DNA of 46,750 nt from an archaeon (GTDB taxonomy: Archaea > Nanobdellota > Nanobdellia > SCGC-AAA011-G17 > GW2011-AR20), in the NCBI GenBank assembly GCA_002688355.1, contig NZCT01000024.1, positions 177,762 through 224,511 on the forward strand, given 5' to 3'. Positions 3,810 through 41,725 of this stretch are shown piece after piece (the stretch's first letter is position 1; the number at the start of each line of letters is the position of its first letter). The notes beneath the pieces were generated by a model. It searched no databases. It had not been told where the DNA came from and was given only the letters and a program-made list of their open reading frames with translations. A program made the translations under genes and the position numbers.

Positions 3810-5534
3810 TTATTCCAATAATAAATTACTAACATCACTTTTCTTTTTTAAGAATTTATTAACATCATAAGGAATTTTCTTTAAAGGTTTTGTACTTATT
3901 CTTATTCCATCCTCCTCAACATTACATATAATATTCATTTTCCATTTGTCTAAAGTTTCAGGAAAATCAACTCTATAATGAGCACCTCTACTTTCTTCTC
4001 TAAACAATGCACTTCTAATAATCATCTCACAAGTTGGTAACATATTTCTAATATCTAAAGCAGCTATTAAATTTTCATTCATTATTAAAGAATTATCAAC
4101 TTTAAATTTAAGTTTTTTATATTTATGTAATTTCTTCAAAGCTTTTTTCATATCTCTAGCTTTTCTTACAACACCAACATTTCTCCACATTAAATTTTGA
4201 ATATCCTTCTTAATCTTAATCGGATCTTTACCTCTTTCATTTCCTAATTTATGCATTATCTCCAAAACTTTATCATTAACTAAACTTTCATCTATCTTTG
4301 TAAATCTTATTGATTTTAATTCTTTTAAAATGTTTTTCCCTGTTAATTTTCCAAAAATAATAATCTCGGCCAGACTATTTCCACCTAATCTATTTGCGCC
4401 ATGAACTCCAGCTGTAACTTCCCCAATTGCAAATAAGTTCTTTATACTAGTTTTCCCAGTCTCATGATCAACATAAATTCCACCCATAGAGTAATGTGCC
4501 GTTGGAGCTACTTCCATCTTATCTTTAGAAATATCAACATTAACATAATCCTTAAACTGTTTATACATTCTAGGAATTCTTGATAAAATATATTTTTTAG
4601 GTTTGTAACTAATATCTAAATAAACACCTTTCTTTTTAGTTCCTCTTCCTTCTTTAATTTCATTATAAACAGCTCTAGCCACAACATCCCTAGCACTTAA
4701 CTCCATTTTTTCAGGAGCGTATTTTTCCATAAATCTTTGTCCTCTTTTATTTGTTAATATTCCACCTTCTCCTCTTACAGCTTCAGTAACAAGCAAACCT
4801 TCTGCTTCTTGAGGATAAACCATACCAGTTGGATGAAACTGAAACATCTCCATATCCATAAATTTAGCACCTAACTCATAGCCTAAAAAAATTCCATCTC
4901 CATTATTTTCCCAAAATCTTGAAGAACTTCTTTTATACATTCTAGAATGTCCACCAGTACATAAAACTACAATTTTACTATGGAAAATAATAAACTCACC
5001 ATTTCGAATATCTAATCCAATTGCACCATTAACTCTTCCCTTAGCATATAACAAAGAAACAATATAAATTTCATTTTTAAATCTTACTTCTCTTTTCAAA
5101 GTTTGATCAACTAATGAATCTAATATTGCCTTCCCAGTATAATCTCCAACAAAACAAGCTCTTCTATAAGTAGCAGCTCCAAAAAATCTTTGTGTAATCT
5201 TACCGTTAGTTTCTTTATGAAATTTAACTTTCCACTTTGCTAATTCTTTAACAGCGTCAGTCGCGTTTTTACATAAAACTTTGACAGCCTTTGCATCGTT
5301 AATATAGCCACCTTCTCGTATTGTATCAGCAGCATGTACTTGCCAAGAATCTTTTTTATCTAAGTTACCTAAAGCAGCATTTATACCTCCAGTAGCTAAA
5401 ATAGTATGTGCATCTCTCTTCTCGCATTTACCAACAACTAAAACATCTGCTTTATTGTCATGTAACTCAATAGCAACTCTCAAACCAGCTCCACCTGAAC
5501 CAATTATTAGAACATCAGATTTTTCAATATTTAT
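3810..5534 (-). CDS. Succinate dehydrogenase/fumarate reductase flavoprotein subunit (SdhA/FrdA/NadB family); true start uncertain
   Basis: AHTILATGG, QFHPTG, LVTEAVRGEGG, PTAHYSMGG, HGANRLGGNSL, ESRGAHYR. The frame stays open upstream of the tracked TTG (5483) through DVLIIGSGGAGL (FAD GxGxxG) to ATA at 5534, which is preceded by an in-frame TGA. Confidence 0.85.
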   Translation of the reverse strand: MNIEKSDVLIIGSGGAGLRVAIELHDNKADVLVVGKCEKRDAHTILATGGINAALGNLDKKDSWQVHAADTIREGGYINDAKAVKVLCKNATDAVKELAKWKVKFHKETNGKITQRFFGAATYRRACFVGDYTGKAILDSLVDQTLKREVRFKNEIYIVSLLYAKGRVNGAIGLDIRNGEFIIFHSKIVVLCTGGHSRMYKRSSSRFWENNGDGIFLGYELGAKFMDMEMFQFHPTGMVYPQEAEGLLVTEAVRGEGGILTNKRGQRFMEKYAPEKMELSARDVVARAVYNEIKEGRGTKKKGVYLDISYKPKKYILSRIPRMYKQFKDYVNVDISKDKMEVAPTAHYSMGGIYVDHETGKTSIKNLFAIGEVTAGVHGANRLGGNSLAEIIIFGKLTGKNILKELKSIRFTKIDESLVNDKVLEIMHKLGNERGKDPIKIKKDIQNLMWRNVGVVRKARDMKKALKKLHKYKKLKFKVDNSLIMNENLIAALDIRNMLPTCEMIIRSALFREESRGAHYRVDFPETLDKWKMNIICNVEEDGIRISTKPLKKIPYDVNKFLKKKSDVSNLLLE

Positions 5535-5603: not shown

Positions 5604-6518
5604 TTATATTAATTTAGGAGTCATATTTTCATTCCATTCTAACAAAGGTACCAATTTATATGATATAAAATGTTTAACGTCTATATAAATAAAATTTGGA
5701 ATTATTGGTTTTTTGATCATTATCTCAGCAGGTTGTTCTACATGACTTTGTAATATAAATGTTATAGGCACATAGACATTTCTACAAAAATTTTCTATAT
5801 CTTGTTTAAAATTATCCACTCCGCCATAAGAGCTACCAAGTTTAAGATATACTCTATTTAAGAATTGTTTTAAATAATTATAATAAAAATTCTCAAAACT
5901 ATTAATGTAATCAGGTAAATCAAGATATTCTAAGAACGATGAATCAAGTTTTACTTGCAACAGTATAGCTCTATTCTTTTTTCTTAAAATTTTCCCAAAC
6001 CTAAATGCAACTTTTAAAAAATCTTTTTCTTCCTCTGTCAAGAAATTTTCTTTTTCTCTTAAATGTTCTATATCCCATGTAGCTTGCATATATTCTTCAT
6101 CCAATAATTCATATATGAATGAAGGTAAATCAACTGCAGAACCCACTTTTTTAACATTTTCAGTTGTTGCAAAATACAGTGGTTTTGAACTCATATCTGC
6201 AGTTATATCTTGATGCCAACCTTCAGTAGAAGATCCTCCTTTTGCTAATATCTTAGATATATTTTCTATTGCTCTTTTCATACCTTTTGGTAATCTTGAT
6301 GTGTCTAAACCATATTTTTTTATAAAAGGTAATAATAATATACTTGTACCATGATACAACCATGCTGATTTATCTTTAATATTATCATTCCATAATTTTG
6401 AGATAAAGATATAATGTTCTTCAACAAATTTATCTATGTCTATACTTTCAAGATATTTTCTATCTACATTTTTTATAATTTCACTCTTGAAATCTTCTTT
6501 AATTTTTTCAATAGACAT
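5604..6518 (-). CDS. Orphan protein with ADP-ribosyltransferase-like (H-Y-E) motifs
   Basis: WLYHGTS...IKKYGL, LYFAT, AILLQVKL and AEIMIKKPIIP occur in the order expected for ART-fold strands. Confidence 0.55.
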   Translation of the reverse strand: MSIEKIKEDFKSEIIKNVDRKYLESIDIDKFVEEHYIFISKLWNDNIKDKSAWLYHGTSILLLPFIKKYGLDTSRLPKGMKRAIENISKILAKGGSSTEGWHQDITADMSSKPLYFATTENVKKVGSAVDLPSFIYELLDEEYMQATWDIEHLREKENFLTEEEKDFLKVAFRFGKILRKKNRAILLQVKLDSSFLEYLDLPDYINSFENFYYNYLKQFLNRVYLKLGSSYGGVDNFKQDIENFCRNVYVPITFILQSHVEQPAEIMIKKPIIPNFIYIDVKHFISYKLVPLLEWNENMTPKLI

Positions 6519-6560: not shown

Positions 6561-7313
6561 CTAATTGCTCGAGTTTTCCCACAAAACATTAAAAATCTTG
6601 ATTTGAGTTCTCGCAAAATTTTCATCCTTTATCAATAATGCATAGGGCTTCTCACCTTGACTAAGAAAATAAACATAATCACCTGCAACTCCAAATTCCA
6701 TTTCCACTTGATCATTCGTATATTTAATTTCAATATATTTTAATTTCTCTCTTTCTTTTCCATGTTCTTTAACATTTTTTGGAACGATTAATCGTTGATG
6801 AACCTTTTTTTTAATTCTAGGCCCATGGAAATATTCTAATAGAAATGCATTCCATTTACTATAAGCAATAGGTGCAGAAGATATGTAAACATTAGAATTA
6901 ATATTCCAACTTTCTGTAAACTCATTAAACATAGATTTAACTCCTCTCAATCCTTCAAAATATTTAAAATCATTTTCTTTACTCTCTTTGATTTCAATAG
7001 TCTTTAATTTATCTACAAATTCTTTTAAATCCTCTCTTTCTTTTTCTAATTGTTTTTCTTTTTCTCTTATAATTGTAAACAAATTTTCAGGATTAACAGA
7101 TCTATACACCTTCACATTATTAGTTATTTTAAAACTAATGAGTCCACTATCAAGTAATTTTCCTAGGATATCATATATATGTGAACGAGGGATCTTCTCT
7201 TTAGAACATATAACTCCTGCTTTTGCTTCTTTATGTTGTAATAGAAATAAATATACCTTTGATTGAACTTGTGTAAGTCCGGTATTTTGTAATTTTTCAA
7301 TTATATCTTTCAT
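6561..7313 (-). CDS. TrmB-family transcriptional regulator
   Basis: GLTQVQSKVYLFLL...IPRSHIYDILGKLLDSGLI winged HTH, NPENL, coiled coil, FEGLRGVKSMF, PLD-like C-terminal domain. Confidence 0.9.
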   Translation of the reverse strand: MKDIIEKLQNTGLTQVQSKVYLFLLQHKEAKAGVICSKEKIPRSHIYDILGKLLDSGLISFKITNNVKVYRSVNPENLFTIIREKEKQLEKEREDLKEFVDKLKTIEIKESKENDFKYFEGLRGVKSMFNEFTESWNINSNVYISSAPIAYSKWNAFLLEYFHGPRIKKKVHQRLIVPKNVKEHGKEREKLKYIEIKYTNDQVEMEFGVAGDYVYFLSQGEKPYALLIKDENFARTQIKIFNVLWENSSN

Positions 7314-7322
7314 TTTAATATA

Positions 7323-7386
7323 GCTACACCAATAAGAGGTAGCAAGTATTTAAATACTCCTTTTAAGCTTATTACTATAAAGTAAA
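7323..7386. promoter_or_regulatory. Divergent promoter region with palindromes (candidate TrmB operators)
   Basis: GCTAC-N11-GTAGC (7323-7343), perfect AGTATTTAAATACT (7345-7358, contains a TATA box), TTACT-N5-AGTAA (7372-7386). Confidence 0.45.
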
Positions 7387-7411
7387 GACAAACGTTCAAG
7401 GAGGAACAAAA

Positions 7412-7843
7412 ATGACAAACATAAAATATAAAATAGGAAACATTGTTGGAGAATTACCAACAAAAGAAGGTATGGATAGTCACAAATTCGTAGTTATGGC
7501 ACGTGAAGAAGAGAATGATCTTGAGTTAGTCCTTAACTCTGAAATACTTCCAACAGAAGGCAGTGGACCATTCGCAAGGGAAAGTAACCTATTACATGCA
7601 GAAATCGTGGATAAAAATCCAGGTGGAAGATGTGTTGGCGGAGGAAAAATAACATATAGTGAATATGATGATACGTCAATAATCGCGGGAGAATCAACAG
7701 GCTATGGAATAGTTCATTCAAACGTAAGAGAGATTTTCGGAAAATTGTTATCTGAAGAGTATAAACTTAAGGAGTTTGATTCAGGTTATATTGAAAAGGA
7801 AAAAAACGAAGCATGGATTAAAAGACACAATATAAAGCTTTAA
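7412..7843 (+). CDS. Janus/Ocnus (14-kDa phosphohistidine phosphatase)-like protein
   Basis: HKFVVM, HAEIVDK, CVGGGKI, IAGESTGYG match the PHP14 pattern KYVL, HADI, CLGGGRI, YGYSxxYG; AGGAGG SD upstream. Confidence 0.65.
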   Translation: MTNIKYKIGNIVGELPTKEGMDSHKFVVMAREEENDLELVLNSEILPTEGSGPFARESNLLHAEIVDKNPGGRCVGGGKITYSEYDDTSIIAGESTGYGIVHSNVREIFGKLLSEEYKLKEFDSGYIEKEKNEAWIKRHNIKL

Positions 7844-7856
7844 TTCAGGAATTTCA

Positions 7857-7885
7857 AGGAGAATAATTTCTCCTCTTCTTATTTT
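7857..7885 (+). terminator. Hairpin plus pyrimidine tract after the Janus-like gene
   Basis: AGGAGAA-TAAT-TTCTCCT perfect 7-bp stem followed by CTTCTTATTTT. Confidence 0.5.
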
Positions 7886-8022
7886 ATATAATCAATTATT
7901 TCCAAAAACACTTATTTAAATTCTTTATGTTTCATTTCAACACTCTTGTATTAATAAATTCTCAAATATTACAAATAAACTCTCTAAAAACATTTATATA
8001 ATTCTTCAAACTAAAAATACTA

Positions 8023-9402
8023 ATGAAAAGAGGTTCTCGTACAGAAAAAGATTACTTGGGTTCTAAAAAGATACCATCATCTGCTTACTATGGAGTTCAA
8101 ACTAAAAGAGCATTAGAAAACTTCCCAATTAGTAATTTACATTTACAAAAAGAATTAGTTTACGCAATTACAATAATAAAAAAAGCAGCAGCCATTACAA
8201 ATAAAAAAAATAAAAGATTAGAACCAAAAAAAGCAAACGCTATAGTAAAAGCATGTAATGAAATACTAAAAGGTAAATTTGATTCACAATTCCCAATAGA
8301 TGTTTTCCAAGCAGGAGCAGGAACTTCTGAAAATATGAACATTAACGAAGTTATAGCAAACAGAGCATTACAAATTCTAAAAAAGAAAAAAGGTTCATAT
8401 AACTATCTTCATCCAAATGATCATGTAAACTTAGCACAATCAACAAATGATGTTTTCCATTCAGCAATTTATATTTCAGCATATACAGAAATAAAAAATA
8501 ATTTACTACCTACATTAGAACATCTAGAAAAAGAATTAAATAAAAAACTAAAAGCCTTTAGCAAAATTAAAAAATCAGGAAGGACACACTTAATGGATGC
8601 TGTTCCTATAACTCTAGGTCAAGAATTTTCAGGATACAAAGACACAATTAAACAAAATAAAGTTAAAATTAAAGAAACTTCTAAAGAACTATTAAATCTA
8701 AACATTGGTGGAACTGCAATAGGAACTGGAATTAACACAACACAATTTTATCAAAAAAATATAGTAAAAGAAATAAATAAAATAACAAAAGAAAAATTCA
8801 AAAAAGCAGAAAACTTAATTGAAGCAACTCAAAATATAAATCCTATAACAAATACAGGTTCTTCATTAAAAAATCTAGCATTAAACTTAATAAAAATAGC
8901 CAATGATTTACGTTTATTAAACTCGGGACCTTCTTCTGGTTTAGCTGAAATATCTCTCCCAAGTGTCCAACCAGGTTCATCTATAATGCCCGCTAAAGTT
9001 AACCCAGTAATGGCAGAAATGTTAGATATGGTTTCTTTCCAAGTTTTAGGTAATGATACAACAATAAACCTATGTGCACAAGCAGGACAATTAGAACTAA
9101 ACGTTATGGTACCTCTAGCAGCTTATAATTTATTACATTCAATTGAAATATTAAACAATAGCATTAAAATATTCACAGAAAAATGTGTTAAAGGAATAAC
9201 CGCTAATAAGAAAAAAACCAATTACTACTTAGAAAAAAACCCTATAATAGTTACAGCATTAACCCCACATATTGGTTATGAAAAAGCAGCTCAAATAGCA
9301 AAAGAAGCATACAAAAAAGATAAATCAATTAGAGAGTTAATCATAGAAAAGAATTTAATGGATAAAAAAACATTAAACAAAATACTAAACGCAGAAATAT
9401 AA
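8023..9402 (+). CDS. Class II fumarate hydratase / aspartate ammonia-lyase
   Basis: YYGVQT, QAGAGTSENMNINEV, HPNDHVN, GRTHLMDAVP, GSSIMPAKVNP. GAGTS leans aspartase, while the gene context fits fumarase. Confidence 0.9.
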   Translation: MKRGSRTEKDYLGSKKIPSSAYYGVQTKRALENFPISNLHLQKELVYAITIIKKAAAITNKKNKRLEPKKANAIVKACNEILKGKFDSQFPIDVFQAGAGTSENMNINEVIANRALQILKKKKGSYNYLHPNDHVNLAQSTNDVFHSAIYISAYTEIKNNLLPTLEHLEKELNKKLKAFSKIKKSGRTHLMDAVPITLGQEFSGYKDTIKQNKVKIKETSKELLNLNIGGTAIGTGINTTQFYQKNIVKEINKITKEKFKKAENLIEATQNINPITNTGSSLKNLALNLIKIANDLRLLNSGPSSGLAEISLPSVQPGSSIMPAKVNPVMAEMLDMVSFQVLGNDTTINLCAQAGQLELNVMVPLAAYNLLHSIEILNNSIKIFTEKCVKGITANKKKTNYYLEKNPIIVTALTPHIGYEKAAQIAKEAYKKDKSIRELIIEKNLMDKKTLNKILNAEI

Positions 9403-9403
9403 A

Positions 9404-10519
9404 ATGGACATAAACAAGGAATCTATAAAAATACATAAAAAATTACAAGGTAAAGTAGAAGTCACACCAAAAGAAAATACAAACAAAGATAATATCAGTT
9501 TACTTTACACTCCTGGAGTAGCTGAAATTTCTAGAATCATCGGCAAAGACGTAAAAAAAGCATATGACTACACAATTAAAAGTAACACGATTGCTATTGT
9601 TTCAGATGGTTCAGCAATTCTAGGTCTTGGAAATCTAGGTCCAGAAGCAGCACTTCCTGTAATGGAAGGTAAAGCAGTATTTTTCAAACAATATGGAGAT
9701 GTAAACGCAGTTCCTCTCTGTATAAAAGATCAAGACGCAGCTGGAATAATAAACTTTGTTGAAAACATAGCTCCAACTTTTGGTGGAATTAACATAGAAG
9801 ATATAGCATCTCCGATCTGTTTTACAGTCGTAGACACATTAACTAAAAATTTAGACATTCCAATATTCCATGATGATCAACATGGCTCTGCTATAGTTAC
9901 ACTTTCCGCGCTAATAAATGCACTAAAAGTTACTAACAAAGATATAAAAGATTCTAAAATAGTTCTTTTAGGTGCGGGTGCCGCAGGTTACGGCGTTGTA
10001 AAAATACTTGATCATGTTGGAGCAAAAAATGTTATAGTTTTAGATAGTAAAGGAATTATTAATAAAAATAGAGAAAATCTAGATGAACATAAGAAAAATA
10101 TTGCTCAAATAACAAATTTAAATTCAGAAGAAGGAGATTTAGAAGATGCAATTAAAGATGCAGATGTCTTCATAGGTTTCTCAGGTCAAAAAAGTATCTT
10201 AACAAAAGATCTAGTTAAAACAATGAAACAAGACCCAATAATATTTGCCCTTTCTAATCCTGATCCAGAGATAATGCCTCAAGACGCAAAAGATGCAGGA
10301 GCAAAAATAATTGCAACAGGAAGAAGCGATTTTCCTAACCAAATTAATAATGTTGTAGCATTTCCATTTGTAATGAGAAAAATCTTAGATGAAAATATTA
10401 AAAAATTAGATCAAGAATTATTTCACAATGCAGCTAAAAAAATTGCTTCAGTCGTTAAAGACCCAACTACCGATCATATTATTCCTTCATTAGATGAAAT
10501 GGAAAATGTCAAATTATAA
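9404..10519 (+). CDS. NAD(P)-dependent malic enzyme (short type)
   Basis: YTPGVA, SDGSAILGLGNLGP, PVMEGK, GGINIEDI, FHDDQHG, GAGAAG, ALSNPDPE, ATGRSDFPNQINN. Confidence 0.95.
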   Translation: MDINKESIKIHKKLQGKVEVTPKENTNKDNISLLYTPGVAEISRIIGKDVKKAYDYTIKSNTIAIVSDGSAILGLGNLGPEAALPVMEGKAVFFKQYGDVNAVPLCIKDQDAAGIINFVENIAPTFGGINIEDIASPICFTVVDTLTKNLDIPIFHDDQHGSAIVTLSALINALKVTNKDIKDSKIVLLGAGAAGYGVVKILDHVGAKNVIVLDSKGIINKNRENLDEHKKNIAQITNLNSEEGDLEDAIKDADVFIGFSGQKSILTKDLVKTMKQDPIIFALSNPDPEIMPQDAKDAGAKIIATGRSDFPNQINNVVAFPFVMRKILDENIKKLDQELFHNAAKKIASVVKDPTTDHIIPSLDEMENVKL

Positions 10520-39353: not shown

Positions 39354-39728
39354 ATGAGATTCTATAATCTAAAAGTAGAAAATCCTGAATCACATGGTGT
39401 AGCATTAAAAGTAGATAATACTCAAAATATAGAATCAAAGTTAAAAGATATGACAAAATGTTACAAAGTAGAAATTCATTCACATATCCAAGGATTCTCA
39501 ACATATGAAATTAGTAATAATAAAAATACAATAGCTCACTTAAGAATAAATCTAGAGGAAGAATTATACATTAAACAAAATATCATGGGCAAGGAATTAT
39601 TCCTAACAGAAATAACAGAAGAAGGAGCAAATAAACAAGCTGAAGGAGCAGCAAATTGGAGATTACTACAAGGTTATGTTGGACCAGATTTACCAACAAA
39701 ATCAAAATTAGAACCACATTTTTACTAA
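39354..39728 (+). CDS. Hypothetical protein
   Basis: 124-aa ORF filling the gap between convergent genes; no motif. Confidence 0.55.
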   Translation: MRFYNLKVENPESHGVALKVDNTQNIESKLKDMTKCYKVEIHSHIQGFSTYEISNNKNTIAHLRINLEEELYIKQNIMGKELFLTEITEEGANKQAEGAANWRLLQGYVGPDLPTKSKLEPHFY

Positions 39729-41725
39729 CTAAAAACTTCTAAATAACATTCTTTATTATTTTTAACTTCATAAAAACTTGAAATAAATTTTATAACATCC
39801 AAAGGGTTAATCTTTTTCTCTAATTTATTATCAAATTCAACTCTTAAATATTCTGGTTGCTCATACGAAGAAAAATCATTTAAACTAAAATTAAAACTCT
39901 CATTAACAGAAAACTTATTCCCTTCTCCCTTAACAAAATAACCTTTACTAACTAAAATATTTATAATATCATATATCTCAGAAAAATTAACTTGACTCTT
40001 AGAAAATATATCAGAAGCATTAAACTCTTTCATTTGTAAAGCTAAATTAAAAACTTTCTTCTGTTGTTCACTTAAATTAACCTCAAAAAATAACTTCTTT
40101 CCTTTACCATTTTCTATTTCCTTAATTATCTCTCCATTATTTAAATTAATCAAAACATTAAAATCTTTTAAATTAACAAATAAACAAGGAATTAAACTTG
40201 TCTTAACATCTTTCCTATCTTCCATTAGCATTAAATCTTTCTTACTAACTTTTTGTTTAATCAACAACATTAACTCTCCTTCATTCTTAAATTCTTCAAC
40301 TTTATCAGTAAAATTTTCATTTTCAACATTGCTTTCTTCTATTCTATTCTCAACACTCAAACCAACATCAATAGTTTCTCCGCCATGCTTTGTCCGTCGT
40401 GGTCTAACATTAACAAATAAGGGTAAATCCACAATGCCAGTAACTAACGCAGTTCCAATAGGTAAATTTCTAATCTCTTTTTCAATTTCAGGATTTATTC
40501 CATCAATAGAACTTGAAATACTTTTAACATCATTTGAATTAGTTACACGCAAAACAATACTTGTAGCACATTGACTTAAAACATTTTTCTCAACTCTAGA
40601 AACTCTTTGCGTTATAATCGTTAACCCAATTCCAAACTTCCTTCCTTCAGCTGCTATCTGTCTTAGAATAGGAGAACTTTTAGCCTCCCCCACATTACGT
40701 TCAGGAACAAAATTCTGAGCTTCTTCAATTACACAAAAAAAAGGAGCAACATTATTTTTCTTTCTAGCATCAAACAAATCATTCAATAATTTGTAAACAA
40801 CAACTTCTTGTAATTCTCTATTAACACCTTTTAAATTTATTATACTACATTTCCCAGGACTTATTAATTCCTGTAACGACGTAGGATTATCAGAAAAAAT
40901 TTCTAATTTCTTAATATATTCTAAAATATGAATTAAACTGTACTTAGCATTGTTCTCTTCTAATTCCAATTCTGAAATTAAACTATCAAAATCTACATTA
41001 CCACTTAAATTCTTAACAGCACTATACAACAATCCAACTTGAGTATTAGATAGTTTTGCAGGAAACAATTGTGCTATGTCTGTTGTACTTAAATTATAAT
41101 TACTTAACTTTAGTGGTTGACACTCAGGATTAACTTCAATATCCGGACTATACTCTTTAATTTTATTTCTATAATTTTTCTTATTAACATTAAATTTAAT
41201 CATCCTCTCTTTATCTTTCTCATTATTAAATTTTAAAGTAGAATATTCTCCATGAGGATCAATTATCAACATTGGTATACCACTTTCAATAATATCCTCA
41301 ATTAATACACCACTTGTATAACTCTTTCCAGAACCAGTTTTAGCTAAAATACTTAATTTATTTGTTAATAATTTATTCAAATCTAAATAAACATCAATAT
41401 CATCATATCCATCTAACTTCCCAATAAAAACCCCTTTACTATCTAATCCAATAATTTCTTTAATAAAATCACTATCAGCTTTCAAAACTTCTACACCAGG
41501 TTCTAACGGAGTTAGTAACCTCTTAAATTCTTTATTTTCCCTATAACCAATAATATTACAAAAAGCAATCTCTTCATTACTATCTTTTTCTATTTCTATA
41601 ATTTGTGCAAGAACATAATCTTCTCCATTTAAAACTTGAACATAATCAAATTTCCTAGCTTTTCCTTTAACCATAAAATTAAATTCCTTTGTACTAGTTC
41701 TTCCTGTAATATTTCCTAAGATCAT
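39725..41725 (-). CDS. HerA/FtsK-superfamily (DUF87) ATPase with N-terminal barrel and C-terminal winged-helix-like region
   Basis: AKTGSGKS Walker A, IDPHGEY, IEEAQNF Walker B, EGRKFG, TQR, SQC. Confidence 0.9.
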   Translation of the reverse strand: MILGNITGRTSTKEFNFMVKGKARKFDYVQVLNGEDYVLAQIIEIEKDSNEEIAFCNIIGYRENKEFKRLLTPLEPGVEVLKADSDFIKEIIGLDSKGVFIGKLDGYDDIDVYLDLNKLLTNKLSILAKTGSGKSYTSGVLIEDIIESGIPMLIIDPHGEYSTLKFNNEKDKERMIKFNVNKKNYRNKIKEYSPDIEVNPECQPLKLSNYNLSTTDIAQLFPAKLSNTQVGLLYSAVKNLSGNVDFDSLISELELEENNAKYSLIHILEYIKKLEIFSDNPTSLQELISPGKCSIINLKGVNRELQEVVVYKLLNDLFDARKKNNVAPFFCVIEEAQNFVPERNVGEAKSSPILRQIAAEGRKFGIGLTIITQRVSRVEKNVLSQCATSIVLRVTNSNDVKSISSSIDGINPEIEKEIRNLPIGTALVTGIVDLPLFVNVRPRRTKHGGETIDVGLSVENRIEESNVENENFTDKVEEFKNEGELMLLIKQKVSKKDLMLMEDRKDVKTSLIPCLFVNLKDFNVLINLNNGEIIKEIENGKGKKLFFEVNLSEQQKKVFNLALQMKEFNASDIFSKSQVNFSEIYDIINILVSKGYFVKGEGNKFSVNESFNFSLNDFSSYEQPEYLRVEFDNKLEKKINPLDVIKFISSFYEVKNNKECYLEVFS

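What the first reader, a model, noticed from the sequence alone, without database searches (positions are those of the whole stretch)
7412..7843. Eukaryote-type phosphohistidine phosphatase (PHP14/Janus/Ocnus) motifs in a DPANN-like archaeon
Seen: HKFVVM...LHAEIVDK...CVGGGKITY...IIAGESTGYGIVH. Established: PHPT1/PHP14 has KYVL...YHADIYDK...CLGGGRISH...VYGYSMAYG, with the HAD His catalytic, and the family is characterised in eukaryotes. The Lys, His and Ser positions are kept, with Arg changed to Lys. The gene has its own SD and terminator. Inference: an archaeal pHis/pLys phosphatase relevant to signalling, host interference or the origin of the family.
Basis: partly seen in the sequence, partly recalled or inferred. 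Interest (0 to 1): 0.75.

Follow-up and report, generated by a model that had tools for sequence, protein, structure and literature searches.

The report
Divergent archaeal PHPT1-like phosphohistidine phosphatase gene
A small gene in a tiny marine archaeon encodes a distant relative of the human phosphohistidine phosphatase PHPT1 that keeps the catalytic histidine, so it is probably an uncharacterised phosphatase, though relatives of this family are already scattered through bacteria and archaea.

Summary
Window 7412-7843 (+) is a 143-aa ORF with the quoted motifs, a GGAGG Shine-Dalgarno sequence and a terminator-like hairpin.

It is a real but very divergent member of the Janus/Ocnus/PHPT1 superfamily. 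Pfam Ocnus scores only 15.7 bits against a cut-off of 23. A profile of its small clade matches archaeal Ocnus proteins (hhalign 97.3%, E 2.5e-11). In the PDB that profile hits only human PHPT1. An AlphaFold model (pLDDT 88) matches PHPT1 at Z 10.3-11.3, the only chain with Z>=5 among 48,161.

Lys25, His62 and Ser95 align with PHPT1 Lys21, His53 and Ser94 and are conserved. The Arg78 position is not conserved.

"Eukaryote-type" is misleading: 14 of 401 sampled genomes of the same phylum carry Ocnus genes above the Pfam cut-off, and this genome has a second one.

New context: these genes often sit divergently beside a TrmB-like regulator, in 6 loci from 5 genomes. The canonical loci share an operator-like motif.

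Activity, substrate and pocket geometry are untested. I rate it a new variant of a known kind, of moderate interest.

The parts
7412..7843 (+). CDS of the 143-aa PHPT1/Ocnus-like protein (P0001); the stop codon is 7841-7843
   Evidence: ORF list and translation. Relatives at 39-52% identity. hhalign 97.3% to archaeal Ocnus. AF2 model with pLDDT 88.2. Z 10.3-11.3 to human PHPT1.
7400..7404 (+). Shine-Dalgarno-like GGAGG, 7 nt upstream of the ATG
   Evidence: Read directly from the sequence.
7484..7486 (+). Codon AAA for Lys25, aligned with PHPT1 Lys21
   Evidence: Alignment of profile A6 to 2ai6_A. The column is K or R in 24 of 26 sequences. The role of Lys21 is taken from passages of PMC4817053.
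7595..7597 (+). Codon CAT for His62, aligned with the catalytic His53 of PHPT1; it is the first residue of helix 62-68 in the model
   Evidence: alignments. His in 10 of 10 clade members and 25 of 26 overall. Secondary structure. His53 as general base: passages of PMC11277029.
7637..7648 (+). Codons for Gly76-Gly77-Gly78-Lys79, aligned with PHPT1 GGG-Arg78
   Evidence: Gly in 24-25 of 26 sequences. Position 79 is variable, with Arg in only 4 of 26.
7694..7696 (+). Codon TCA for Ser95, aligned with PHPT1 Ser94 (phosphate-binding OH)
   Evidence: Ser in 26 of 26. Role of Ser94 from passages of PMC4817053.
7796..7828 (+). Codons for the clade-specific C-terminal helix (residues 129-139, including conserved Trp135), which lies outside the PHPT1-aligned core (model 1-127)
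   Evidence: Secondary structure. Aligned ranges. Trp135 in 9 of 10 clade members.
7857..7884 (+). Terminator-like hairpin (7857-7874) with a T-rich tail
   Evidence: Consensus scan. Fold -9.3 kcal/mol with z = -1.28, which is not remarkable on its own.
7314..7411 (.). 98-bp divergent intergenic region shared with the TrmB-like gene; presumed promoters of both genes
   Evidence: ORF coordinates. It does not hold the TGTTGTAGA...CAACA motif of the canonical loci. Its 14-nt palindrome at 7345-7358 is no more than chance.
6561..7313 (-). Divergently transcribed TrmB-family regulator (250 aa); candidate regulator of the phosphatase gene
   Evidence: Pfam TrmB E 1.4e-13. It is 27% identical over its full length (E 1e-22) to the TrmB beside the paralogue. 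The same arrangement is seen in 6 loci of 5 genomes.

Best explanation
Window 7412-7843 is a genuine, independently transcribed gene for a small cytoplasmic protein of the Janus/Ocnus/PHPT1 fold. It belongs to a rare, divergent archaeal clade that falls below Pfam's threshold. Most likely it is a metal-independent phosphoramidate (P-N) phosphatase that works like human PHPT1. In that mechanism His62, at the N-terminus of helix 1, acts as general base to activate water for direct attack on phosphohistidine (possibly phospholysine). Phosphate would be held by the Ser95 hydroxyl and nearby backbone amides, with Lys25 (and here Lys79) neutralising charge. The substrate is unknown. Phosphohistidine-forming enzymes encoded in the same genome are candidates: nucleoside diphosphate kinase, a PEP-utilising enzyme and a succinyl-CoA-ligase-like protein. 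Components acting on its orphan receiver domains are a further possibility. Expression is probably controlled by the divergent TrmB-like regulator. Shown: the gene, the homology, the fold, residue conservation and the gene neighbourhood. Inferred: catalysis, substrate and regulation.
For: Gene reality. Relatives of 139-149 aa at 39-52% identity exist elsewhere. Identical fragments occur in contigs of three other studies.

Homology. Ocnus is the only Pfam hit of P0001 (E 0.016), and 4 of 10 clade members hit it at E<=1 (best 4.3e-4). The clade profile A4 against 15 archaeal Ocnus proteins gives hhalign 97.3%, E 2.5e-11, with HKF, His and GGG..S..YG in register. The clade-only profile A7 finds only PHPT1 chains in the PDB (E 0.0075). 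The joint profile A6 finds them at E 1.5e-13.

Fold. The AF2 model has pLDDT 88.2 and pTM 0.83. Foldseek's top 5 hits are all human PHPT1 chains (E 8.8e-5 to 8.7e-4; the next hit is E 0.12). VIA gives Z 11.3, 10.7 and 10.3 over 98-102 residues, with the next hit at 3.8. In the exhaustive search PHPT1 scores Z 10.8 and is the only one of 48,161 chains with Z>=5. The ESM Atlas's own model of this protein, made without my alignment, matches Ocnus clusters at TM 0.59-0.60.

Residues. His62 is present in 25 of 26 sequences, Ser95 in 26 of 26, Lys/Arg25 in 24 of 26 and the GGG in 24-25 of 26. The PHPT1 site residues and the His53 general-base mechanism come from passages of PMC4817053 and PMC11277029.

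Candidate substrates in the genome: NDK, a PEP-utilising enzyme and Ligase_CoA.

Regulation. A divergent TrmB gene lies next to Ocnus-family genes in 6 loci of 5 genomes, although the genome has only 7 TrmB matches.
Against: P0001 alone fails Pfam's gathering score (15.7 against 23 bits) and finds nothing in the PDB by phmmer.

The PHPT1 Arg78 position is Lys here and is not conserved. It is K, C, E, E, R, S, S, N, K, S within the clade, and Arg in 4 of 26 overall.

The AF2 alignment included canonical Ocnus sequences, and AlphaFold was trained on PHPT1, so the fold match is not fully independent of the homology claim. The single-sequence model was useless (pLDDT 41).

I could not inspect coordinates, so the pocket geometry is unverified.

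No prokaryotic member of the family has been assayed in the papers I could find.

No histidine kinase was detected in the genome. There was no HisKA match, and the three HATPase_c matches are GyrB, Topo VI-B and a HATPase_c_3 protein. A two-component target is therefore doubtful.

Outside this window the clade's genes do not sit beside TrmB: 0 of the 6 other clade loci do. The window's intergenic region lacks the conserved operator-like motif.
Confidence: 0.6

Rival explanations
1. The protein has the PHPT1 fold but is not an enzyme. It would be a phosphate-, ligand- or protein-binding module, for example a co-factor or signal sensor working with the neighbouring TrmB-like regulator. The conserved His, Ser and Lys would then bind an anion rather than catalyse hydrolysis.
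For: The Arg78-equivalent is not conserved. One archaeal paralogue (L023) has lost the His yet stays an intact ORF. The pairing with TrmB regulators recurs in 6 loci of 5 genomes.
Against: The His is kept in 25 of 26 sequences and the Ser in 26 of 26, across sequences that are otherwise only 16-27% identical to P0001 outside its closest relatives. That pattern is typical of a catalytic site. The divergent gene orientation points to transcriptional control rather than a complex.
Confidence: 0.2
2. It is an active hydrolase whose physiological substrate is a small phospho-compound, such as phosphoramidate, a phosphorylated metabolite or a nucleotide derivative, rather than a phosphoprotein.
For: The Atlas shows eukaryotic fusions of the Ocnus domain to NUDIX NAD(+) diphosphatases. 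The gene lies among central-metabolism genes: an SdhA/FrdA-like flavoprotein, fumarase and malic enzyme. No histidine kinase was found.
Against: The only characterised members act on protein phosphohistidine or phospholysine (passages of PMC11277029 and PMC6429109). The gene has its own promoter region and terminator-like hairpin, so it is not in an operon with the metabolic genes.
Confidence: 0.15
3. The similarity to PHPT1 is a chance or convergent motif match, and the protein belongs to another family or fold.
For: Single-sequence scores are weak: Pfam E 0.016, no PDB hit by phmmer, and a stray NCBIfam MazF hit at E 0.065.
Against: Profile-profile comparison gives E 2.5e-11. PHPT1 is the sole PDB hit of the clade profile. 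PHPT1 is the sole structure with Z>=5 among 48,161 chains. The MazF hit scores 13 bits against a cut-off of 150.
Confidence: 0.03
4. It is a gene recently acquired from a eukaryote, or a secreted effector used against a host ('host interference').
For: DPANN archaea are often episymbionts, which is general knowledge and was not tested here. The characterised members of the family are eukaryotic.
Against: The family is scattered through the same archaeal phylum (14 of 401 sampled genomes) and through bacterial clusters. In the tree P0001 sits inside an archaeal or metagenomic clade. The gene lies in a chromosomal region with aRF1, ribosomal proteins, PCNA and aminoacyl-tRNA synthetases. Identity to PHPT1 is only about 21-22% even in the structural alignment.
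Confidence: 0.02

Closest known systems
Human PHPT1 (14-kDa phosphohistidine phosphatase; PDB 2AI6, 2HW4, 2NMM, 2OZW, 2OZX)
   Same: The fold matches: Z 10.3-11.3 over 98-102 aligned residues, model 1-127 against chain 3-123. Lys25, His62, Ala63, Ser95 and the GGG and YG motifs align with Lys21, His53, Ala54, Ser94, GGG and YG. Size is similar and no metal-binding motif is evident.
   Different: Identity is only about 21-22% in the structural alignment. Lys replaces Arg78, in a column that is not conserved. The His-to-GGG segment is 9 residues shorter, by my count on the alignment. There is a low-confidence inserted loop at residues 43-60 (pLDDT 66-70) and an extra C-terminal helix at 129-139 with a conserved Trp. 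Activity is unknown.
Pfam PF05005 Janus/Ocnus family, canonical archaeal members, including this genome's own paralogue (G000 contig C27; L001 1354-1734; P0008)
   Same: Same superfamily (hhalign 97.3%). Same conserved His, GGG, Ser and YG. Same divergent TrmB-like neighbour.
   Different: P0001 scores below the Pfam cut-off (15.7 bits against P0008's 35.6). The two lie in different clades of the tree, so they are not recent duplicates. P0001 lacks the downstream receiver-domain gene that follows P0008. It also lacks the operator-like motif of the canonical loci.
SixA (bacterial phosphohistidine phosphatase of the histidine-phosphatase superfamily)
   Same: It is the functional analogue in prokaryotes. 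It removes phosphohistidine from NPr and, in E. coli, from Ndk. I saw passages of PMC7948535 and only the search-listing abstract of PMC12934123.
   Different: SixA has an unrelated fold and mechanism, with a phospho-enzyme intermediate on its own His. P0001 gave no Pfam hit to His_Phos_1.

Membership tests
Janus/Ocnus/PHPT1 (Pfam PF05005) | Score above Pfam's gathering cut-off (23 bits) | tested here: not met
   P0001 scores 15.7 bits, E 0.016, matching only profile positions 62-99 of 108. Of 10 clade members, 4 hit at E<=1, best 4.3e-4. This is a detection threshold, not a biochemical feature.
Janus/Ocnus/PHPT1 (Pfam PF05005) | Profile-level homology to bona fide members | tested here: met
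   hhalign of A4 (7 clade sequences) against A3 (15 archaeal proteins, 14 over the Pfam cut-off on their own and L020 only when its neighbouring matches in the frame are counted) gives 97.3%, E 2.5e-11 over 83 columns. Clade-only profile A7 against the PDB finds only PHPT1 chains, E 0.0075.
Janus/Ocnus/PHPT1 (Pfam PF05005) | PHPT1 fold: a beta-sheet flanked by two helices, with the active site between the alpha1/beta4 and beta5/alpha2 loops | tested here: met
   AF2 model with pLDDT 88.2. Z 11.3, 10.7 and 10.3 to 2nmm, 2hw4 and 2ai6. PHPT1 is the only one of 48,161 chains with Z>=5. Caveat: the alignment used for the model contains canonical family members.
Janus/Ocnus/PHPT1 (Pfam PF05005) | Catalytic histidine (PHPT1 His53) | tested here: met
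   His62 aligns with His53. It is present in 10 of 10 clade members and 25 of 26 overall. It is the first residue of helix 62-68.
Janus/Ocnus/PHPT1 (Pfam PF05005) | Lys21 and Ser94 equivalents | tested here: met
   Lys25 (K or R in 24 of 26) and Ser95 (26 of 26).
Janus/Ocnus/PHPT1 (Pfam PF05005) | Arg78 equivalent | tested here: not met
   P0001 has Lys79. The column holds Arg in only 4 of 26 sequences and is variable in canonical archaeal members too. It is therefore a PHPT1 feature rather than a family-wide one.
Janus/Ocnus/PHPT1 (Pfam PF05005) | His, Ser and Lys lining one anion-binding pocket in three dimensions | not testable with these tools
The claim rests only on alignment ranges and secondary-structure positions.
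Janus/Ocnus/PHPT1 (Pfam PF05005) | Phosphohistidine or phosphoramidate phosphatase activity | not testable with these tools
   This needs a biochemical assay.
SixA / histidine phosphatase superfamily (PF00300) | Match to the His_Phos_1 profile | tested here: not met
   No such hit appeared in the Pfam scan at E<=10.
MazF toxins (NCBIfam NF052489) | Score above the curated cut-off (150 bits) | tested here: not met
   13 bits, E 0.065, over residues 18-60 only.

The most novel reading that the evidence does not exclude
Ocnus/PHPT1-like proteins, their divergent TrmB-like regulators and the adjacent orphan receiver domains form a previously unrecognised phospho-signalling module of DPANN archaea that have no detectable histidine kinase. 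In this reading the PHPT1-like phosphatase sets the phosphorylation state of the signalling partner: a receiver, the regulator itself, or a phosphohistidine donor such as NDK. P0001 would be a diverged copy of this module.
Probability: 0.12. Interest if true: 0.8.

Novelty: new variant of a known kind. Interest (0 to 1): 0.5.

Why it matters
PHPT1 is one of very few known phosphohistidine phosphatases, and it has been studied only in animals. In the passages and abstracts I read, the only prokaryotic phosphohistidine phosphatase with proposed in vivo targets is SixA, which has an unrelated fold. None of my five searches found a paper that characterises a prokaryotic Ocnus/PHPT1 homologue.

This protein marks a clade that Pfam does not capture, and it keeps the catalytic His, Lys and Ser. 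It therefore offers a small, tractable protein for two questions. Is the PHPT1 mechanism ancient? What does phosphohistidine removal do in minimal-genome archaea?

The recurrent TrmB pairing gives concrete hypotheses for regulation. So do the shared operator-like motif of the canonical loci and the adjacency to a receiver domain in this genome.

The importance is tempered in two ways. The family's presence in prokaryotes is already visible in databases. No function is shown here.

Tried and rejected
1. Single-sequence AlphaFold gave pLDDT 41 and was unusable.

2. phmmer of P0001 against the PDB found nothing at E<=10.

3. The word-indexed homologue search found only the protein itself with the single protein and 5 proteins with alignment A1. 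With the mixed 22-sequence alignment A5 it found only 4 proteins, so that search was largely wasted.

4. The exhaustive representative search listed 7 proteins. Four of them (P0004-P0007, 1181-3962 aa, 5-14 matched stretches each) look like repeat proteins matching short segments. I did not follow them up.

With A2 it found no confirmed relative in genome contigs, metagenome contigs or viral contigs.

6. tblastn against phage records gave no match. Foldseek against BFVD gave 0 hits at E<=0.001, with the best at E 0.04-0.19 to small unnamed phage proteins. The phage link suggested by the Atlas taxa therefore remains only a lead.

7. The third weak Ocnus hit in the genome (L003, 12.8 bits, with a TAA inside) is a short 'YGESFTFG' stretch at the start of an otherwise unrelated 109-aa ORF with no Pfam hit. 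I rejected it as a paralogue.

8. The perfect 14-nt palindrome AGTATTTAAATACT (7345-7358) in the TrmB/P0001 intergenic region was considered as an operator. I rejected it as evidence because the window has 5 such palindromes against 9 +/- 3 in shuffles.

9. The motif TGTTGTRGA-N4-8-HHCAACA was not found in the locus covering this window's region (L002/L004/L024) nor beside the paralogue in L001. A regex for its half-sites also found nothing in either intergenic region.

10. Complex prediction for TrmB with P0001 was not available, so binding was not tested.

11. For expression, no RNA holder was listed among the sequencing runs. The contigs laid gave only short identical fragments, with no variation from which to measure selection.

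12. The search of earlier findings returned nothing for this genome on these words.

Full report
**1. The observation**

GGAGG lies at 7400-7404, 7 nt before the ATG. A 7-bp hairpin with a T-rich tail lies at 7857-7874. The region has 2 terminator-like sites against 0.2 expected in shuffles, although the hairpin's energy is not exceptional (z = -1.28).

The window is a chromosomal stretch of an archaeon. It holds PCNA, TFS, aRF1, ribosomal proteins S19e and L31e, a Cbf5-like pseudouridine synthase, ValRS and CysRS. The genome is 0.96 Mb at 97% estimated completeness. NCBI names a protein of a same-class relative 'Candidatus Woesearchaeota archaeon'. 'DPANN-like' is therefore fair.

**2. Is it related to PHPT1?**

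Single-sequence evidence is weak but points one way.
- Pfam returns only Ocnus (PF05005), at E 0.016 and 15.7 bits. That is below the 23-bit cut-off and covers only residues 72-108.
- phmmer against the PDB returns nothing.
- NCBIfam gives only a meaningless MazF hit of 13 bits against a cut-off of 150.

The protein has few close relatives.
- The exhaustive representative search found two full-length ones (P0002 at E 1.9e-26, P0003 at E 8.6e-17). It also found four long multi-stretch proteins that I did not pursue.
- A profile search added P0009 and P0010.
- Whole-genome searches added L005, L006, L027, L028 and L030. They also found L007, from a genome flagged as unpublished, which I left out of all alignments.

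The profile of this clade gives the decisive results.
- hhalign against 15 archaeal Ocnus proteins gives 97.3% probability and E 2.5e-11. Fourteen of these proteins pass the Pfam cut-off on their own; L020 does so only when its neighbouring matches in the frame are counted. HKF aligns with KF/KY, His with His, and GGG..S..YG stays in register.
- The clade-only profile (10 sequences) finds only the three PHPT1 sequences in the whole PDB, at E 0.0075, with the His aligned.
- The joint 26-sequence profile finds PHPT1 at E 1.5e-13.

**3. Fold**

With the 26-sequence alignment AlphaFold2 gives pLDDT 88.2 and pTM 0.83. Without an alignment the pLDDT was 41.
- Foldseek's five best PDB hits are all human PHPT1 chains (E 8.8e-5 to 8.7e-4). 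The next hit is at E 0.12.
- VIA-align gives Z 11.3, 10.7 and 10.3 (98-102 residues aligned, rmsd 4.2-4.7, 21-22% identity, model 1-127 against chain 3-123). The next hit is at Z 3.8.
- In the search that does not depend on Foldseek, PHPT1 (Z 10.8) is the only one of 48,161 representative chains with Z>=5.
- The ESM Atlas's own model of this exact protein, made without my alignment, matches Ocnus-annotated clusters at TM 0.59-0.60.

One caveat applies. My alignment contains canonical family members and AlphaFold has seen PHPT1, so the fold match and the sequence homology are not fully independent.

**4. Active-site residues**

Passages of PMC4817053 list Lys21, His53, Ala54, Arg78, Ser94 and Ala96 as the PHPT1 catalytic-site set. 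Passages of PMC11277029 describe His53 as a general base activating water, with no phospho-enzyme intermediate. Using the HMMER alignment to 2ai6_A and alignment A6, these map to Lys25, His62, Ala63, Lys79, Ser95 and Gly97.

Column counts are as follows:

| P0001 residue | PHPT1 residue | Conservation |
|---|---|---|
| Lys25 | Lys21 | K or R in 24 of 26 |
| His62 | His53 | 25 of 26 overall; 10 of 10 in the clade |
| Gly76-78 | GGG | 24-25 of 26 |
| Lys79 | Arg78 | variable; Arg in 4 of 26 |
| Ser95 | Ser94 | 26 of 26 |
| Gly99 | Gly | 26 of 26 |

The Arg78 position varies even among canonical archaeal members. In the model His62 is the first residue of helix 62-68. Ser95 lies in the loop before helix 103-117. 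PMC4817053 places the PHPT1 site between these two elements. I could not read coordinates, so pocket geometry is inferred.

Differences from PHPT1 are:
- a shorter His-to-GGG segment;
- a low-confidence inserted loop at residues 43-60;
- an extra C-terminal helix at 129-139, with a Trp kept in 9 of 10 clade members.

**5. Distribution: not 'eukaryote-type'**

- Ocnus matches above the Pfam cut-off occur in 14 of 401 sampled genomes of the same phylum, and in 0 of 14 control model genomes.
- P0001's clade was matched in 4 of 401 phylum genomes. This tally includes G000 and the unpublished G322.
- It was matched in 7 of 240 genomes of the order, and in 0 of 26 other genomes of the same family.
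- The Atlas shows Ocnus-annotated clusters labelled mostly bacterial (Nitrospirota, Acidobacteriota), some phage-labelled, and a eukaryotic NUDIX fusion. These are leads, not tests.
- G000 itself has a second, canonical Ocnus gene (C27; L001 1354-1734; 35.6 bits). In a maximum-likelihood tree P0001 and this paralogue fall in different clades. P0001's clade, plus L030 and L018, forms one side of a branch with 83/83 support, which is not strong.
- G030 also carries one gene of each type (L005 and L009).

**6. Neighbourhood**

P0001 is divergent from a 250-aa TrmB-family regulator at 6561-7313 (-). The same arrangement holds for the paralogue (L001) and for canonical Ocnus genes in L008, L009, L010 and L021. 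That makes 6 loci in 5 genomes.
- Among the 6 other clade loci (L005, L006, L026, L027, L028, L030) none has a TrmB neighbour.
- G000 has only 7 TrmB matches in 0.96 Mb, so two adjacencies in one genome are unlikely by chance.
- The two G000 TrmB partners are 27% identical over their full length.

The four canonical TrmB/Ocnus intergenic regions share an imperfect palindrome, TGTTGTAGA-N5-6-TCWACAACA. Across all 36 loci held, the pattern occurs in 7 loci. By my collapsing of the overlapping loci L021-L023, that is 7 distinct sites. Each lies directly upstream of an Ocnus gene, its TrmB partner or, in L013, the gene preceding the Ocnus gene. The motif is absent from the window's locus and from L001.

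The window's own 14-nt palindrome is not above chance.

The paralogue is followed 16 nt later by a receiver-domain ORF that is cut by the contig end (PF00072, 24.4 bits, below the cut-off). L011 shows a similar receiver-like ORF after its Ocnus gene (28.3 bits, below the cut-off). G000 also has a TrmB gene followed by two receiver genes on C12.

No HisKA match was found. The three HATPase_c matches are GyrB, Topo VI-B and a HATPase_c_3 protein. Phosphohistidine-forming enzymes are present: NDK, a 793-aa PEP-utilising enzyme and a Ligase_CoA protein.

**7. Interpretation**

Shown:
- a real, conserved gene;
- membership of the PHPT1/Ocnus superfamily by profile and by fold;
- conservation of the catalytic His, Lys and Ser;
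- a recurrent TrmB association.

Inferred:
- that it hydrolyses P-N phosphate with His62 as general base;
- that its target is a phosphohistidine protein;
- that the TrmB-like protein regulates it.

My confidence in the homology is above 0.9. My confidence in the whole statement, including catalysis, is about 0.6.

**8. Novelty**

Five literature searches found no paper characterising a prokaryotic or archaeal Ocnus/PHPT1 homologue. Their terms were:
- 'PHPT1' + 'phosphohistidine phosphatase' + 'archaea';
- 'Ocnus', 'Janus', 'phosphohistidine', 'bacteria';
- 'PF05005';
- 'phosphohistidine phosphatase' + 'DPANN';
- 'PHPT1', 'prokaryotes', 'homologue', 'SixA'.

Passages of PMC7948535 list only SixA, PHPT1, PGAM5 and LHPP as phosphohistidine phosphatases with proposed in vivo targets. 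The library does not cover subscription journals, and I opened no supplements, so absence in print is not proven.

The family's prokaryotic presence is already visible in Pfam-annotated databases. The finding is therefore a new, divergent variant of a known kind rather than a new kind.

**9. Other checks**

Identical fragments of the locus occur in contigs from three further studies: 7667-7963 in X2 and X3, and 7202-7446 in X4. No RNA run was listed.

Noticed in passing
L008 1872-1893; L009 1409-1430; L010 880-901; L013 638-659; L021 1404-1425 and 2950-2971; L022 2834-2855: A conserved imperfect palindrome, TGTTGTAGA-N5-6-TCWACAACA, lies upstream of canonical archaeal Ocnus genes and their divergent TrmB partners in several genomes. 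It precedes each of three tandem Ocnus paralogues in G168. It is probably the operator of the TrmB-like regulator.
   Followed up: partly
L001 1750-2040 (G000 contig C27, cut by the contig end); L011 1851-2399: A receiver-domain-like ORF (PF00072, 24.4 and 28.3 bits, both below the cut-off) starts just after the canonical Ocnus gene. The L001 ORF keeps the ED pair and a 'SDVFFP' acceptor-like Asp.
   Followed up: partly
L031 (G000 contig C12): 533-1318, 1306-1848, 1854-2258: A third TrmB-family regulator is followed by two receiver-domain proteins, in a genome with no detectable HisKA or histidine-kinase-type HATPase_c. These are orphan receivers.
   Followed up: partly
L017 1925-3013; L029 418-1533; L031 2-442: A class I Trp/Tyr-type tRNA synthetase gene lies next to Ocnus genes in two genomes. 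In G000 it lies next to the TrmB-receiver-receiver cluster. This may be a remnant of shared synteny.
   Followed up: no
window 3810-5483 (-), 8023-9402 (+), 9404-10519 (+): An SdhA/FrdA-like flavoprotein, a class II fumarase and a malic enzyme flank the finding. This is a partial C4-dicarboxylate set in a 0.96-Mb archaeal genome.
   Followed up: no
window 5604-6518 (-): A 304-aa ORF between the flavoprotein gene and the TrmB gene has no Pfam match at E<=0.001.
   Followed up: no
window 39725-41725 (-): A 666-aa HerA/DUF87-type ATPase ORF also carries a TrmB-type HTH match (28.4 bits in the genome search, G000 C24:217678-217842).
   Followed up: no
L021-L023 (G168 contig C7, 41268-47538): Three Ocnus paralogues lie within about 3.3 kb (G168:C7:42768-46038). 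One (L023 1459-1851) has Asp/Ala in place of the conserved His. A Pycsar-effector-like (PycTM) ORF lies between them.
   Followed up: no
L003 1240-1569 (G000 C24:120353-120472): A weak Ocnus match (12.8 bits, with a TAA inside) is caused by a 'YGESFTFG' stretch at the start of an otherwise unrelated 109-aa ORF. It is probably chance.
   Followed up: yes
proteins P0004-P0007: Four long proteins (1181-3962 aa) match short parts of P0001 in 5-14 stretches each. They may be repeat proteins built from a similar beta-hairpin motif.
   Followed up: no
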